Shown one piece after another: positions 50,794 through 54,856 of a stretch of DNA of 64,000 nt. The notes below the pieces were generated by a model. The model made no database searches, had not been told where the DNA came from, and worked only from the letters and a program-made list of their open reading frames with translations. The stretch lies in NCBI RefSeq assembly GCF_009931435.1, contig NZ_CP043414.1. The stretch is one strand, 5' to 3'. Numbering within the stretch: position 1 is the first letter of the stretch; every line of letters starts with the position of its first letter. A program made the translations under genes and the position numbers. This stretch comes from Escherichia coli. Its GTDB lineage: Bacteria > Pseudomonadota > Gammaproteobacteria > Enterobacterales > Enterobacteriaceae.

Positions 50794-51640
50794 AGCCTGC
50801 TTCTCCTTGCCTTTCGGCACGTAAGAGGCTAACCTAGATTTGCCGTTCATAGATTGAGCCTCAGATTAATGTTAAGCGTCTTGCAGGACGCGTAATGTTA
50901 ACTGGGGCTTTTCTATATCTGCCTTTGGTGTTCATGCCTGAGACAGATAGCCTCAAGCACCCGCAGCCATTGTACTTAACTCCCGTTACCTCGCCAATAT
51001 AAAATCAATCAGAAAGGCGATCCATAAGGACAATAGCAAGACAATAAATTGCCATTACCCGCAATAGCCAGCGCACATTTGAGGACCAGCACGACAACTT
51101 TCTGTATCGGACGTACACCAGTCCTGATAAATACAAGGCGGTCTCATCAGTGATGAAATGCAACTATTGAGTACAGTTTCTCTGATTTTTCTGTAAAACA
51201 TGGAACACAACAACTAAATATAACTAGCACTTCTTAAGATGTACAAATTCAGAGTTAAGATAACGTAAGCAGTTTTCTCAAAACTAAGTGTAAATTTTTA
51301 ATGAAGAGCAGTGCTATGCTCCTGATCATATATTCATTGTTTGGAACTGGAGGAATATTTAGGTTGCTGGAGTGGTTGATTGAATTTAAATCAACTAAGA
51401 CAAAAACCAACAATTAAAGATATGTGGTATATCAGAAAACAACTATCCGTATATTACTACAGAATTAAATACTAGCAACAAAGCTGTCTTTATTGATTTT
51501 TTATCTGATATCGAAATAAATAAACATAAAATAACCAACTAATTAAAACAGAGACTCGACAATGAGCCTCTATCTATTGTAACAGCACTTCCAAATTTAT
51601 TTTAGTAAGATAATAGCATGGGGCATACTAGCCCCATCTT

Positions 51641-53143
51641 TTAAACCGTTTCATCAAGGAAATACTTAGACGAATCATCCTGTTTCGGTTGATATGTTTT
51701 TTTTGCAGAATTAAGAACTCTTCTTAGTTCTTTTCTTAACTCAGGTAAACGCTCCTGAAGAGGGTTAGAACACCATTGTGAAGGCAACCCTCTTATAATA
51801 GCTTCGGAACAAAGCGGTGAAATAAGTTTTTCCATTTGATAATAGAAAGTTTTTGCTCGACTTACACGCATTGTGATCCTTTTTATTACATCTCTTTCAG
51901 ACTCAATTCTAGCACTCAGATCTCTTAATCTACTCCATACCTTAGCATCAGCAATATATGTATCATAAAGCATACACTCTATAAACGTGAAATTACTAAT
52001 AAGTTCTTTTGCAATATACCCCCCCAGCCGAGAAGGAATGAAACTTGATGAAGCTGTTGGATCTCCGTGATTTACGGTGAACAAAAACCTTTTATTGCAT
52101 AAATCAACGAGAACTCGATGCGTGAAAGAGTCACCTATACCAATTAACCTTAACTTTTCAGTTATTACCGAACCATCGATTTGTCTGAATCCGGGATCGC
52201 TTGCATACGAAACGATAACATTAAGAATGTACAGCCTCAATAATTGCATTTGTGTCACAGCTAAATTCGAATCAAACGGGTTCGCAATAGTCGACGTTGA
52301 CTCGCTATAAGTCAACTCAGTACCCAGTAATATAGCTCTAAATGCCTCATGACGTGGAAGAAGATATCTTCCTTGTTCTCTGAAAATTTGTACTGCTTTA
52401 CCTGGACTCGTATACCCTCTTTCTAAGAACTCACGAGTCATACGTAATGCTAATCGAACATCATCCGTAGCAAGAACTTCAATACGTGTTCCAATCTCAC
52501 TTCCCAGCACAGACCCACTAATAATATCGACTAATTGTGATATATCATCCAATACAACTTTAGCGCCATTTTCTGCAATAAAATTTCCACTTTTATTACT
52601 TGTCATATACTTTACTAGTGCAAAGCGTTTTGCAATCACACTACTTATTCTCGGTGGATCTATTTGTATAACTTCAAAATCGAAAGCATCTATAGCAGGT
52701 GAGTTTTTATGTTTGATAAATGTAGACTGCCTCAATGAAAGTACTAAATTTAATGAAAGCGCTCTGGAAATTGAAAATGACTCGGTAAATATCCGGGACT
52801 GGATATCATCAAACTCGATCTGATCAACGTTATCAATAACAAGAAAAAAAGATGTCTCTTTTGTAACACGACTTATTATTTTATCAACATAAGGTTTTAT
52901 CTTTTTATATTGTTCATATAAAAAATCCGAGATTCTGGTATTTTTTTGATCCTCACTCAATAAAAAAAGAGGTCCTGATTTTATCGCCTCAATATCTTCT
53001 CGAAATGCATCAAATACAAAATCCTTATTACTCAAAACAGGATGCTTATTGATATATTCCAGAATTGATTTATAAATAAAATCGACTATTGAACTTTCTG
53101 ATGGATTATCTAGAAAGTCTATATGAACCCAATGCGGCGTCAA
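51641..53143 (-). CDS. C-terminal part of a frameshift-split nuclease-NTPase gene (Walker B and helical/winged-helix-like region)
   Basis: 500 aa ORF whose track start is TTG; contains Walker B-like SFFLVIDNVDQ but no Walker A. A single-base deletion in the (A)8 run 53161-53168 joins it in frame to the upstream ORF. Confidence 0.6.
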   Translation of the reverse strand: MTPHWVHIDFLDNPSESSIVDFIYKSILEYINKHPVLSNKDFVFDAFREDIEAIKSGPLFLLSEDQKNTRISDFLYEQYKKIKPYVDKIISRVTKETSFFLVIDNVDQIEFDDIQSRIFTESFSISRALSLNLVLSLRQSTFIKHKNSPAIDAFDFEVIQIDPPRISSVIAKRFALVKYMTSNKSGNFIAENGAKVVLDDISQLVDIISGSVLGSEIGTRIEVLATDDVRLALRMTREFLERGYTSPGKAVQIFREQGRYLLPRHEAFRAILLGTELTYSESTSTIANPFDSNLAVTQMQLLRLYILNVIVSYASDPGFRQIDGSVITEKLRLIGIGDSFTHRVLVDLCNKRFLFTVNHGDPTASSSFIPSRLGGYIAKELISNFTFIECMLYDTYIADAKVWSRLRDLSARIESERDVIKRITMRVSRAKTFYYQMEKLISPLCSEAIIRGLPSQWCSNPLQERLPELRKELRRVLNSAKKTYQPKQDDSSKYFLDETV

Positions 53144-53147
53144 GATA

Positions 53148-54146
53148 TCACATTGATTTGAAAAAAAACTCTTTTATTCTAACCTTTCTCATGTAATGAA
53201 GAAATGTTGTTTTACCTGCACCTACAGTCCCAAGTAACAAGATCGCGAGAGGTTTGTCATTCCTGACTTTTATTTTTTTCTTCCCTTTAACCTGAAACTT
53301 ATCAACTATTCTTTTTGTATCTTTATCATTAAGCCCTTTTAGTACTTCACCATTCAGCACACTTGAACGCCTACCTATATTCATTCTAATTTTACTATCG
53401 AATCTCATAGTTTCTGGTGTTGAAACATAACATTTATCAAAGGAGTCTTCATCCAAGTAAAGTATAGAATCAGAAAAAGCCAACCTTAATTCATCAGCAA
53501 TCAAATGATATATTGGATTATTTGTCTGTGTTCTGTTTTGTTGCGAATAAAAATTTCTTAATTTTCTAAATTCTATTTGATTTTCGACGCGACCTAAAAG
53601 TGCTGTTTCTAGACTTCCTGATATAACATTTTCACGACTAAGTAAATCATAGAATTCTTGATAATTATCATTTAAGCAATCTTCTAACGACCAGAACACA
53701 AGCGCTATTGAATCATTAAATTTGACATTGTCATGCCTCTGAGCTGCAAAACATGCCCATACATTTCCATTCGTAGCGACAGCATAATCTATACCAAATT
53801 TCCTGGCGTAATCTCTAGCTTGTATTATCGCTTCACCAAGATCACTTTGTAAAAAACTATTACTTAGCTTTATTTTTCTTTTTCCTGGAATTGTACTAAA
53901 GCTTGGCCCTGCCTTTTTAGCTTCAACAACAAGAGCAATATTAGCTGTTTTTAGTATATAATCAGCATAAGTTGTCAAACCATCTTCAGTCACATGCTCT
54001 TCTGGTTTTATATCACTATCAGTCCACATCAAGACTTCCTTTAATACCCGATCTATCACTTTTAGTCTTGTGGCTGCTTCATTTGCATTTTCTAATTGTA
54101 AATGATGATAAGCTGATAATATTTCCGAAATAAATGTTTTCTCCAT
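53148..54146 (-). CDS. N-terminal part of the same split gene: HsdR-N/Mrr-like PD-(D/E)xK nuclease domain ending in a Walker A motif
   Basis: 332 aa; ADYILKTANIALVVEAKK fits the (D)...(E)xK nuclease core; LAILLLGTVGAGKTTFLHYM Walker A lies 14 residues before the stop, so the NTPase domain is truncated in this frame. Confidence 0.6.
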   Translation of the reverse strand: MEKTFISEILSAYHHLQLENANEAATRLKVIDRVLKEVLMWTDSDIKPEEHVTEDGLTTYADYILKTANIALVVEAKKAGPSFSTIPGKRKIKLSNSFLQSDLGEAIIQARDYARKFGIDYAVATNGNVWACFAAQRHDNVKFNDSIALVFWSLEDCLNDNYQEFYDLLSRENVISGSLETALLGRVENQIEFRKLRNFYSQQNRTQTNNPIYHLIADELRLAFSDSILYLDEDSFDKCYVSTPETMRFDSKIRMNIGRRSSVLNGEVLKGLNDKDTKRIVDKFQVKGKKKIKVRNDKPLAILLLGTVGAGKTTFLHYMRKVRIKEFFFKSM

Positions 54147-54856
54147 AGATTATTCTCTCTATAAAAAATAACGAAAATTTTTCTGATTAGTTTTACCGCA
54201 TTTAGTTACAATAACCTAGCTATGTCAAGTCTGATGTTATCCTAAATTTCATTTTTGTTATATTATCCTCTAATTCTTAAGGCACACGTTTGAAAAGCGT
54301 CGACTTTCTCCTGTATGCTCTGAAGGTATCATTTACTCTGATTTTTCACGCAGTGTGCCGGATAGTTTTCTGTCAGGATAGAGCCCTAGATGACACGGAT
54401 GACCGCTGATGACCTGAATATGATCATGTCGCTAACATTCGCCATGGGTAATATTATTAGCCAATCCCGCCCCATCTGTTCATTCTGCTCCTGAATGCCC
54501 CCCCCCCGAAGTCAGCAGACTATGGCCTCGTTGCTGACATGCTCAGAGCCAACTCCTTACCCCCTTACGTAGAAGCAATCTCAGGCACCATTAGTGATTA
54601 CGGTAACCGAGCAGTTGTATTACACCGAACCGACTACCGCTATCATCAACACCTATCTTTGGGGCATAAAAGCGTGGCATAAAGGAAGCAACTAGGCAGT
54701 GATTATGTAAGTACATCTGTAAAACGGACCATCCATTTTAAATATCCTCTGATCCCCCTCAATATCCACCTCTAGCACAAAGCGGACAACCACGCTAGCT
54801 CTCCCCTGTACCATGAAAATTTCAATTCACATATGTATTAATGCTCTTTAGTCTCT

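What the first reader, a model, noticed from the sequence alone, without database searches (positions are those of the whole stretch)
50851..54856. AT-rich accessory island between hokD and the replication genes
About 4 kb of markedly AT-rich DNA interrupts otherwise GC-balanced prophage sequence. It carries the split nuclease-NTPase gene, about 700 bp (54147-54856) and about 800 bp (50851-51640) of apparently non-coding flank, and is bordered by toxin genes (hokD, Doc module). Composition and position fit a horizontally acquired defence or addiction cargo slot.
Basis: partly seen in the sequence, partly recalled or inferred. Interest (0 to 1): 0.55.

Follow-up and report, generated by a model that had tools for sequence, protein, structure and literature searches.

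The report
Defence-cargo slot in a lambdoid prophage
The AT-rich stretch is real: it is a swappable cargo slot of E. coli lambda-like prophages that usually holds anti-phage genes, and here it holds a plasmid-derived, frameshifted gene for an uncharacterised nuclease-NTPase that is probably a one-gene phage-defence system.

Summary
Confirmed and refined. Window 50851-54856 has 36.0% GC against 51.2% for the window, and is the longest stretch below 40% GC. Comparison with other prophages puts the foreign segment at 51236-54774 (3.54 kb, 35% GC). Only 7 of 5,426 complete E. coli genomes carry it, while thousands share its flanks: hokD/sok on one side, a DUF977 "Ren-like" gene on the other. In other prophages the same slot holds Kiwa, PD-T7-1, AbiH, an AbiU-like AIPR protein, PADLOC candidates PDC-S15 and PDC-S39, a NACHT protein, or relBE (K-12 Qin).

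The cargo here is one 834-codon gene, split by one extra T in a T7 run. It encodes an HsdR-type PD-(D/E)xK nuclease fused to an Orc/Cdc6- or STAND-like P-loop NTPase. It has no full-length match in PADLOC, NCBIfam or Pfam. Relatives sit alone in the P2 old/tin hotspot, at a Pf prophage end, in another DUF977-adjacent slot, and on plasmids and an ICE-like element.

The "non-coding" flanks hold the sok region, conserved backbone, a terminator, the gene's 5' region and a decayed plasmid tyrosine-recombinase stub. A defence function is inferred, not shown.

The parts
49739..50233 (-). Doc-family toxin gene (164-aa ORF). It is a neighbour outside the island and sits in a second variable slot to the left of hokD.
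   Evidence: NCBIfam TIGR01550 E 1.6e-37; phrog_577 'Doc-like toxin' E 1.9e-51. Window 49671-50550 (880 bp) replaces 324 bp in strain MS 119-7.
50243..50470 (-). Small ORF upstream of doc. It is a presumed antitoxin by position only.
   Evidence: phrog_2208 (unknown function) E 1.5e-40. No Pfam or NCBIfam hit.
50638..50793 (-). hokD, a type I toxin of 51 codons plus stop. The in-frame ORF extends to 50850.
   Evidence: ORF listing. It aligns to annotated hokD (WP_000813256.1) in L001 4039-4194.
50788..50962 (-). hok mRNA leader and sok antitoxin region.
   Evidence: Rfam RF01794 sok: 105 bits against a gathering score of 59, E 8.9e-24, full model.
50963..51235 (.). Conserved prophage backbone next to hok/sok. 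It is not part of the cargo.
   Evidence: Positions 1-276 of query 50960-51640 match about 3,060 E. coli genomes at 83-93% identity, and the match stops at 51235. The same breakpoint is seen in L002-L006.
51236..51617 (.). 382 bp of very AT-rich DNA found only in carriers of the island. Its origin is unknown and it has no convincing ORF.
   Evidence: Present only in the 7 carrier genomes. Absent from the plasmid copies. No match to any fetched locus.
51618..51637 (-). Terminator-like hairpin 3 bp after the stop codon. It marks the left end of the unit shared with plasmids.
   Evidence: Stem of 7 pairs, 5 of them G-C. Plasmid homology starts exactly at 51618.
51641..54146 (-). Nuclease-NTPase gene of 834 codons when intact. 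Here it is two ORFs, 53148-54146 and 51641-53143. Predicted layout: HsdR-type PD-(D/E)xK nuclease (about residues 1-185), linker, P-loop NTPase (about 296-500), lid and winged helix, then a C-terminal helical region.
53161..53168 (.). Frameshift site: a run of 8 A on the + strand (T8 on the coding strand), against 7 in intact copies.
   Evidence: Pairwise alignment shows a single-base gap as the only difference in 500 bp. Run length is 8 here and 7 in L001, L019, L020 and L021.
54147..54412 (-). 5' untranslated and promoter region that travels with the gene.
   Evidence: 86-87% nucleotide identity with the plasmid copies continues 266 bp upstream of the start codon, to 54412 in L015/L016 and to 54264 in Klebsiella and Serratia plasmids.
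54390..54690 (+). Decayed 5' stub, with in-frame stops, of a plasmid tyrosine recombinase gene. It diverges from the NTPase gene as in the plasmid arrangement.
   Evidence: tblastn of the L015 and L018 recombinases (residues 31-112) hits window 54447-54683, E 2e-5 and 2e-4, with a 'PRSQQTMASLL' motif. Residual nucleotide homology to L015 7416-7617. Window 54255-54432 matches the region annotated as tyrosine-type recombinase/integrase in many Enterobacter plasmids.
54498..54507 (.). Homopolymer of 10 C on the + strand inside the recombinase stub. Its length differs between copies.
   Evidence: Run length is 10 here and 8, 11, 7 and 7 in L001, L019, L020 and L021.
54775..54856 (.). Conserved backbone just downstream of the DUF977 gene. 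This is the right edge of the slot.
   Evidence: Homology with other prophages resumes at 54747-54775. Query positions about 613-710 of 54147-54856 match about 2,250 genomes.
54857..55279 (-). DUF977 / 'Ren-like exclusion protein' gene. It is the last gene of the replication module and the right border of the slot.
   Evidence: Annotated as DUF977 in L001 8255-8677. phrog_142 'Ren-like exclusion protein' E 1.7e-45.

Best explanation
The AT-rich stretch is the current occupant of an exchangeable cargo slot in Qin/Rac-type lambdoid prophages of E. coli. The slot lies at the end of the early-right replication module. It sits between the DUF977 'Ren-like' gene and the hok/sok (hokD) locus that precedes the DUF968-RusA-Q block.

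Conserved flanks let homologous recombination between mosaic phages swap whatever lies between them. What lies there is usually an anti-phage or toxin module.

In this window the occupant (51236-54774) is a fragment captured from an enterobacterial IncF-type plasmid. It consists of one self-contained gene with its own 5' region and terminator, a dead stub of the neighbouring plasmid tyrosine recombinase, and 382 bp of unknown AT-rich DNA.

The gene encodes an HsdR-type PD-(D/E)xK nuclease fused to an Orc/Cdc6- or STAND-like P-loop NTPase with a winged-helix and helical C-terminal part.

Inferred mechanism: in a lysogen the protein idles as an NTP-bound switch. An infection cue sensed by the NTPase/WH/C-terminal half drives nucleotide-dependent oligomerisation. 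That activates the nuclease, which degrades DNA and stops the phage, either by abortive infection or by direct attack on phage DNA. The result protects the lysogen population and the prophage.

In this copy the gene is inactive as written, because of a +1 frameshift at a T7 run, so the island is probably a decaying relic. A homopolymer sequencing error cannot be excluded.

Shown: the composition, boundaries, variability of the slot, defence content of sister slots, plasmid origin, domain folds, conserved catalytic motifs and frameshift. Inferred: the defence function, the trigger and the oligomerisation mechanism.
For: Composition and boundaries.

Rarity of this cargo against commonness of its flanks: 7 of 5,426 genomes against about 2,250-3,060.

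Slot diversity.

Defence content of the slot in other prophages: KwaA 1.3e-101 and KwaB 2.8e-159, PD-T7-1 4e-157, AbiH 1.7e-27, AbiU-like 6.9e-24, PDC-S15 1.2e-98, PDC-S39 8.4e-103. K-12 Qin has relBE there.

The island occurs in prophages with different replication, immunity and Q modules. Breakpoints are not at one fixed base. Both points fit recombinational exchange.

Plasmid origin:
- 86-87% nucleotide identity over 51618-54412 to Klebsiella, Serratia and Enterobacter plasmids and metagenomic IncFII contigs.
- A recombinase stub in the plasmid-like position and orientation.

Protein:
- Invariant D62/E75/K77 and Walker A/B in 95 homologues.
- AF2 model with pLDDT 85.9.
- AAA_16 hits in 40 of 95 members and KAP in 25 of 95.

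Family context: it is always a lone gene on mobile DNA.
- P2-like prophage between portal and gpA. That position is the old/tin defence hotspot (PMC9122126).
- Pf prophage end.
- A second DUF977-adjacent lambdoid slot.
- A Vibrio prophage.
- A PRTRC/ICE-like region.
- IncFII plasmids beside a CAP12-PCTIR TIR protein and TA genes.

The gene has 10-20 GC points less than its surroundings in all 8 contexts. The family is large: 596 clusters at 50% identity with E<=1e-30, and the 800-870 aa architecture is kept.
Against: - There is no experimental evidence for defence, and no paper was found on this protein.
- There is no full-length hit in PADLOC v2, NCBIfam or Pfam, for the query or for ten distant relatives. 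The 'defence' label therefore rests on association and architecture.
- The protein lacks the long C-terminal repeat sensor typical of Avs/NLR-like proteins. Its best fold match is Orc/Cdc6 rather than a STAND protein.
- Promoter-like sites are not more frequent than in shuffled sequence: 17 against 15.2. Expression in the lysogen is unshown.
- The copy in the window is broken. Other copies are hit by IS1A and IS903B. That could mean cost or toxicity, or simply lack of selection.
- The slot census is a sample of about 25 loci plus a 60-row spread listing, not a full count.
Confidence: 0.7

Rival explanations
1. The cargo gene is an NTP-dependent restriction enzyme, Type IV-like or McrBC/HsdR-like. 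It directly recognises and cuts incoming modified or foreign DNA without killing the host. It is not an infection-triggered abortive sensor.
For: The nuclease domain is closest to the HsdR nuclease domains of Type I enzymes and to the Type IIG/IIL enzymes BpuSI and DrdV. A winged-helix domain follows the NTPase, as in the DNA-binding Orc/Cdc6 proteins. No partner methyltransferase is conserved next to it, which fits modification-dependent enzymes. The N-terminus of distant relatives weakly matches the DrmMI N-terminus.
Confidence: 0.2
2. The island is an addiction or selfish-maintenance module like its neighbours hok/sok and doc. The nuclease-NTPase acts as a toxin that stabilises the prophage or plasmid rather than defending against phages.
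For: It is flanked by hokD/sok and a Doc module. On plasmids it sits among TA genes: YafO, TacA/TacT-like and RES-Xre. Copies are repeatedly inactivated by a frameshift, IS1A and IS903B, as expected for a costly toxin.
Against: No conserved antitoxin partner or adjacent small gene is seen across eight contexts. An 834-aa multi-domain regulated enzyme is atypical for TA toxins. Sister cargos in the slot are mostly bona fide defence systems. TA modules themselves often act in phage defence, so this rival overlaps with the main reading.
Confidence: 0.07
3. The gene is part of the phage's own replication or recombination machinery, as an Orc/Cdc6-like initiator or loader with a nuclease. The AT-richness merely reflects its phage lineage.
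For: It lies directly after the replication genes and is transcribed in the same direction. Its best structural matches are the replication initiators Cdc6/Orc1 and the AAA+ regulators TnsC and RFC.
Against: It is present in only 7 of 5,426 genomes, while the replication modules around it vary independently. Prophages with an almost empty slot exist (L003, 294 bp). The same family occurs in filamentous Pf, P2-like and Vibrio prophages, on plasmids and on a bare chromosome. The closest DNA relatives are plasmid-borne.
Confidence: 0.03

Closest known systems
P2 old/tin and P4 defence hotspots (Rousset et al. 2022, PMC9122126)
   Same: A fixed position in a temperate phage, bounded by conserved genes, carries highly diverse and mostly AT-rich anti-phage cargo that is exchanged between relatives. 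A 47%-identical relative of the cargo protein sits in the P2 gpA-portal hotspot itself.
   Different: The phage type differs (lambdoid Qin/Rac-like) and so do the borders (hok/sok and a DUF977 Ren-like gene). The slot is not next to cos. I found no paper describing this slot.
Avs/AVAST and other bacterial NLR-like STAND defence proteins, such as nuclease-STAND-TPR proteins (Gao et al. 2020 as cited in PMC9122126; PMC12803255)
relBE-hokD (relBEF) locus of the E. coli K-12 Qin prophage, and lambda ren after gene P
   Same: The genomic position is the same. In K-12 Qin, relB-relE lie immediately upstream of hokD. In lambda the accessory exclusion gene ren follows the replication genes (established knowledge). 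The slot's right border is a PHROG 'Ren-like exclusion protein'.
   Different: The cargo here is a large nuclease-NTPase of plasmid origin, not a small type II TA pair.
HsdR nuclease domain of Type I restriction enzymes, and the ORC/Cdc6-clade AAA+ ATPases of defence systems (BrxC of BREX, RdrA of RADAR; PMC12839542, PMC9994260)
   Different: There is no SF2 translocase and no HsdM/HsdS, BREX or RADAR partner genes. It is a solitary gene.

Membership tests
Prophage defence hotspot (variable cargo slot) | Conserved flanking genes present in many related prophages | tested here: met
   The hokD-side flank is found in about 3,060 of 5,426 E. coli genomes and the DUF977-side flank in about 2,250.
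Prophage defence hotspot (variable cargo slot) | Many alternative gene contents between the same flanks | tested here: met
   At least 15 distinct cargos of 0.3-4.3 kb were seen in sampled loci. This cargo is in only 7 genomes.
Prophage defence hotspot (variable cargo slot) | Cargo enriched in known anti-phage systems | tested here: met
   Kiwa, PD-T7-1, AbiH, AbiU-like, PDC-S15 and PDC-S39 were found among 10 sampled cargo proteins. This is a sample, not a statistical enrichment test.
Prophage defence hotspot (variable cargo slot) | Cargo protects against phage infection | not testable with these tools
   This needs plaque and infection assays with the intact allele.
PD-(D/E)xK nuclease, HsdR N-terminal type | Restriction-endonuclease alpha-beta-beta-beta-alpha-beta core fold | tested here: met
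PD-(D/E)xK nuclease, HsdR N-terminal type | Catalytic D...(D/E)xK residues conserved | tested here: met
   D62, E75 and K77 are invariant in 95 homologues, as is E23 in the first core helix.
PD-(D/E)xK nuclease, HsdR N-terminal type | Significant Pfam HSDR_N or HSDR_N_2 match | tested here: inconclusive
   For the query, E is 0.39. Only 5 of 95 members reach E<=1e-3, and 36 reach E<=0.1.
STAND / Avs (NLR-like) antiviral NTPases | P-loop NTPase with Walker A and Walker B | tested here: met
   G306xxGxGKT313 and D438 are invariant. AAA_16 hits in 40 of 95 members and KAP in 25 of 95.
STAND / Avs (NLR-like) antiviral NTPases | NTPase followed by helical and winged-helix domains of the STAND type | tested here: inconclusive
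STAND / Avs (NLR-like) antiviral NTPases | Large C-terminal repeat sensor (TPR, WD40, etc., typically at least 400 aa) | tested here: not met
   About 330 residues follow the NTPase. They form a WH domain and a helical bundle with no repeat array. No TPR or WD40 Pfam hit was found.
STAND / Avs (NLR-like) antiviral NTPases | N-terminal effector domain | tested here: met
   PD-(D/E)xK nuclease at residues about 1-185.
Any defence family in PADLOC-DB v2.0.0 | Full-length HMM match | tested here: not met
   For the query, only mREase_II at E 2.9e-4 over 48 residues. Ten distant relatives give only domain-level weak hits: DrmMI N-terminus, mad3 and mad8.
hok/sok type I toxin-antitoxin locus (left border) | hok ORF plus sok/leader RNA structure | tested here: met
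   The 51-codon hokD ORF equals annotated hokD. Rfam sok scores 105 bits against a gathering score of 59.
Integrase-mediated genomic island or cassette | Intact site-specific recombinase and flanking att or direct repeats | tested here: not met
   The recombinase is a stub of about 100 codons with stops. Only one imperfect 18-nt direct repeat is present, and it does not sit at the breakpoints. Breakpoints vary between prophages.

The most novel reading that the evidence does not exclude
The 834-aa family (PHROG 14719, WP_001349602.1 and relatives) is an undescribed single-protein immune system. Instead of a repeat sensor recognising a phage protein, an Orc/Cdc6-like AAA+ module with a winged helix recognises phage DNA or replication intermediates and licenses an HsdR-type nuclease. 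In addition, the hokD to Ren-like (DUF977) interval is an E. coli-wide defence hotspot of lambdoid prophages, comparable to the P2/P4 hotspots and usable for discovering further systems.
Probability: 0.35. Interest if true: 0.65.

Novelty: new variant of a known kind. Interest (0 to 1): 0.5.

Why it matters
Two practical leads come out of this.

1. The hokD to DUF977 interval is present in a large share of E. coli genomes. In the sample examined it holds Kiwa, PD-T7-1, AbiH, AbiU-like and PADLOC-candidate genes, alongside several proteins of unknown function:
   - a 269-aa protein (phrog_21495);
   - a 463-aa protein next to AbiH;
   - a 752-aa NACHT protein;
   - DUF5677;
   - an alpha/beta hydrolase.

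   The interval is therefore a ready-made bait for finding new defence genes in lambdoid prophages.

2. The cargo family is large (596 clusters at 50% identity with E<=1e-30). It is carried on four kinds of prophage as well as plasmids, it is absent from PADLOC v2, NCBIfam and Pfam, and no paper on it was found. It combines a restriction-type nuclease with an Orc/Cdc6-like switch. If it defends, it widens the range of nucleotide-switch immune proteins beyond repeat-sensor NLR-like types.

For this particular window the biology is modest. The copy is probably dead.

Tried and rejected
- **Library searches with the intact protein.** PADLOC, NCBIfam and Pfam gave no significant full-length hit. 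PHROGs gave only an unnamed family. PDB sequence searches with full-length and N-terminal profiles gave nothing significant.
- **Literature.** There were no hits for the accession. DUF977 appears only in a 2009 Fido-domain paper. No paper describes this architecture or this slot. The DefensePredictor supplements do not contain the accession. The Avs-families preprint has no supplementary files held. Brenes & Laub 2025 is not held.
- **Transposon or integron-like insertion.** No terminal inverted repeats or target duplications were found. The only direct repeat (18 nt, 89% identity, at 51174 and 54330) does not coincide with the breakpoints and is probably chance.
- **Promoter and terminator scan.** Promoter-like sites are at the chance level (17 against 15.2). 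Only the hairpin at 51618-51637 is informative.
- **Rfam on the flanks.** Apart from sok, all hits are far below gathering scores and were not pursued: isrK 26 against 50, rsmX, Leu leader and RydC.
- **The 382-bp segment 51236-51617.** It has no match in any fetched locus or in the plasmid copies. Its origin is unresolved.
- **Replication-factor reading of the Orc/Cdc6-like fold.** Rejected on distribution grounds (see rivals).

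
Full report

Yes. The interval 50851-54856 has GC 0.360. The whole window is 0.512, everything to its left is 0.531 and everything to its right is 0.472. For 500-bp windows the mean is 0.512 with SD 0.067. The windows below 0.40 form one nearly continuous run from about 50901 to 54500. The only other such runs in the 64 kb are 600-900 bp long. Third-codon-position GC of the two ORF halves is 0.22 and 0.25, against 0.42-0.55 in the surrounding phage genes. The right end, 54250-54856, has 42-45% GC and is not strikingly AT-rich.

**2. What lies around it?**

The region reads on the minus strand as a lambdoid early-right operon: cI-like repressor, cro, YdaT, a replisome-organiser-like gene, a 272-aa ORF and DUF977. 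The island follows, then hokD, a Doc module, DUF968, RusA and Q.

- The DUF977 protein is PHROG 142, 'Ren-like exclusion protein'.
- hokD is confirmed by identity to annotated hokD and by a full-length Rfam sok hit at 50788-50962 (105 bits, gathering score 59).
- The Doc toxin is confirmed by TIGR01550, E 1.6e-37.

**3. True limits of the foreign segment**

A megablast of 50600-55000 against 5,426 complete E. coli genomes found the whole stretch in only 7 genomes, at 99.0-99.8% identity. Thousands matched only the two ends.

- On the left, homology with other prophages runs to 51235. About 3,060 genomes match query positions 1-276 of 50960-51640.
- On the right, homology resumes at about 54747-54775, in about 2,250 genomes.

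The cargo is therefore 51236-54774: 3,539 bp with GC 0.352.

The breakpoints are not one fixed nucleotide. In different prophages the shared flank ends at 50975, 51033, 51133, 51216 or 51235, and resumes at 54775, 54817, 54874, 54903 or 54962. No flanking repeats mark the junctions. The seven carrier prophages have different replication, immunity and Q modules. All this fits exchange by homologous recombination between mosaic phages, not site-specific insertion.

**4. The slot is variable and rich in defence genes**

Sampled occupants of the hokD-DUF977 interval:

| Locus or source | Occupant |
|---|---|
| L003 | almost nothing (294 bp) |
| L002 | 269-aa unknown protein |
| phage Tritos | 444-aa protein matching PADLOC candidate PDC-S15 (E 1.2e-98) |
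| phage mEp460_ev081 | PD-T7-1 (E 4e-157) |
| phage Evi | acetyltransferase plus a regulator |
| phage HannyBb | small ORFs plus a methyltransferase fragment |
| L030 | AbiH (E 1.7e-27) plus a 463-aa unknown protein |
| L031 | AIPR/AbiU-like protein (E 6.9e-24) |
| L032 | 752-aa NACHT protein |
| L033 | complete Kiwa pair, KwaA 1.3e-101 and KwaB 2.8e-159, plus QueH |
| L034 | DUF4209 = PDC-S39 (E 8.4e-103) |
| L035 | DUF5677 |
| L036 | alpha/beta hydrolase in O157-type prophages |
| spread listing | KilA-N proteins and methyltransferases |
| K-12 Qin | relB-relE directly upstream of hokD |

Cargo GC ranges from 0.32 to 0.45.

**5. The cargo gene**

In strain MS 119-7 the gene is one ORF of 834 codons, WP_001349602.1. 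In the window it is split into 53148-54146 and 51641-53143. The cause is a single extra base in a homopolymer: T8 on the coding strand (A8 at 53161-53168 on the + strand), against T7 in four other copies. A second homopolymer in the upstream stub varies between copies: 7, 7, 8, 10 and 11. Homopolymer sequencing error therefore cannot be excluded.

Other copies are broken by IS1A in E. coli strain H7 and by IS903B in Serratia plasmids.

**6. What the protein is**

- *Libraries.* There are no significant full-length hits in PADLOC, NCBIfam or Pfam. PHROGs gives phrog_14719, of unknown function, over the full length.
- *Family.* Homologues of 800-870 aa are numerous and widespread: 396 hits in the word-indexed search, and 596 clusters at 50% identity with E<=1e-30 in the exhaustive search.
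- *Conserved motifs.* In 95 aligned homologues, D62, E75 and K77 (the D...ExK motif), the Walker A motif G306-T313 and D438 are invariant.
- *Whole-protein model.* The AlphaFold model is confident: pLDDT 85.9, pTM 0.83.
- *Pfam on the members.* AAA_16 in 40 of 95, KAP in 25 of 95, and weak HSDR_N hits.
- *Distant relatives.* Ten of them give only weak domain-level PADLOC hits.

The protein is thus an HsdR-type nuclease fused to an Orc/Cdc6- or STAND-like NTPase with a WH domain and a helical tail. It has no repeat sensor.

**7. Where the family lives**

It is always a lone gene on mobile or variable DNA:

- an E. coli relative (47% identity) adjacent to DUF977 in Rac-like prophages, in the opposite orientation;
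- a P. aeruginosa relative at the end of Pf filamentous prophages;
- a Serratia relative between portal and gpA of a P2-like prophage, which is the old/tin defence hotspot defined by Rousset et al. (PMC9122126);
- a Vibrio prophage;
- a PRTRC/ParB mobile region in Cupriavidus;
- a chromosomal single-gene insertion in Aeromonas;
- IncFII plasmids, next to a CAP12-PCTIR TIR protein and TA genes.

In all eight contexts the gene has 10-20 GC points less than its flanks.

**8. Origin of this copy, and what the 'non-coding' flanks are**

Plasmid copies (93% amino-acid and 86-87% nucleotide identity) align to window 51618-54412. That span covers the terminator-like hairpin (51618-51637), the gene and 266 bp upstream.

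In those plasmids a tyrosine recombinase gene diverges from the NTPase gene. In the window the same position and orientation hold a decayed stub:

- tblastn of recombinase residues 31-112 hits 54447-54683 with in-frame stops (E 2e-5);
- residual nucleotide homology is present;
- 54255-54432 matches the region annotated as recombinase/integrase in many Enterobacter plasmids that lack the NTPase gene.

The right 'non-coding' flank is therefore the gene's own 5' region, a recombinase stub and about 80-100 bp of backbone. The left flank is the hok leader/sok region (to 50962), conserved backbone (to 51235), 382 bp of unexplained AT-rich DNA (51236-51617) and the terminator.

**9. Mechanism**

- *Shown:* the slot and its variability, the plasmid origin, the folds and motifs, and the frameshift.
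- *Inferred:* the gene is a single-protein anti-phage system. The NTPase/WH/C-terminal half senses infection. Nucleotide-dependent assembly then activates the nuclease, as established for Avs and other STAND defence proteins (PMC12803255; PMC9122126).

Alternatives are a direct NTP-dependent restriction enzyme, an addiction toxin and a phage replication factor. They are weighed in the rivals section. The last is contradicted by the gene's distribution.

**10. Novelty and verdict**

Prophage cargo hotspots and nuclease-NTPase defence proteins are known kinds. This particular slot and this family were not found in the libraries or papers searched. The protein fails one defining Avs feature, the repeat sensor. 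I file it as a new variant of a known kind and rate it of moderate interest. The copy in the window is probably non-functional.

Noticed in passing
window 49671-50550: A second variable slot lies on the other side of hokD. Here 880 bp carry a Doc toxin (49739-50233) and a 59-75-aa ORF (phrog_2208). Strain MS 119-7 has only 324 bp there. Other phages carry rem, an ImmA/IrrE pair or a 130-aa ORF at that position.
   Followed up: partly
window 46292-47005 (-): This is another AT-rich block (GC about 0.39). It is a 237-aa multi-pass membrane protein (phrog_1521, unknown function) between Q (47260-47931) and a 361-aa DNA methyltransferase (44685-45770). It looks like a separate moron downstream of Q.
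   Followed up: partly
window 54498-54507: A C10/G10 homopolymer inside the recombinase stub differs in length in every copy examined (7, 7, 8, 10, 11). This is either slippage-prone DNA or long-read homopolymer error. It bears on how far the T8 frameshift can be trusted.
   Followed up: partly
L020 9050-9747 (E. coli strain H7); plasmids NZ_CP011641.1 and NZ_CP029448.1: Independent insertions disrupt the same nuclease-NTPase gene elsewhere: IS1A in an E. coli prophage copy and IS903B in Serratia plasmid copies. Together with the frameshift here, this suggests recurrent inactivation.
   Followed up: no
L015 10721-11827, L016 3133-4239, L017 2864-3970: On the IncFII-type plasmid contigs the NTPase gene is convergent with a 368-aa CAP12-PCTIR TIR-domain protein, and it lies near TacA/TacT-like and YafO toxin genes. 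This looks like a small plasmid defence/TA islet.
   Followed up: no
L026/L027 15827-16451: The P2-like Serratia prophage that carries the homologue in its old/tin hotspot also has a KAP-family NTPase gene right after the CI repressor. This may be a second cargo position.
   Followed up: no
window 51174-51191 and 54330-54347: An 18-nt imperfect direct repeat (CAGTTTCTCTGATTTTTC / CATTTACTCTGATTTTTC) occurs 3,156 bp apart, one copy in the conserved left backbone and one in the gene's upstream region. It does not coincide with the breakpoints and is probably chance.
   Followed up: no
window 50548-50629 (-): A weak Rfam hit to isrK, a Salmonella prophage Hfq-binding sRNA, lies just downstream of hokD. 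It scores 26.4 bits against a gathering score of 50, with E 0.012. It is below threshold and was not pursued.
   Followed up: no
L032 1213-3471; L030 2118-3509; L002 3818-4627: Some occupants of the same slot in other E. coli prophages have no PADLOC match: a 752-aa NACHT protein, a 463-aa protein next to AbiH, and a 269-aa protein (phrog_21495). These are further candidate defence genes.
   Followed up: partly
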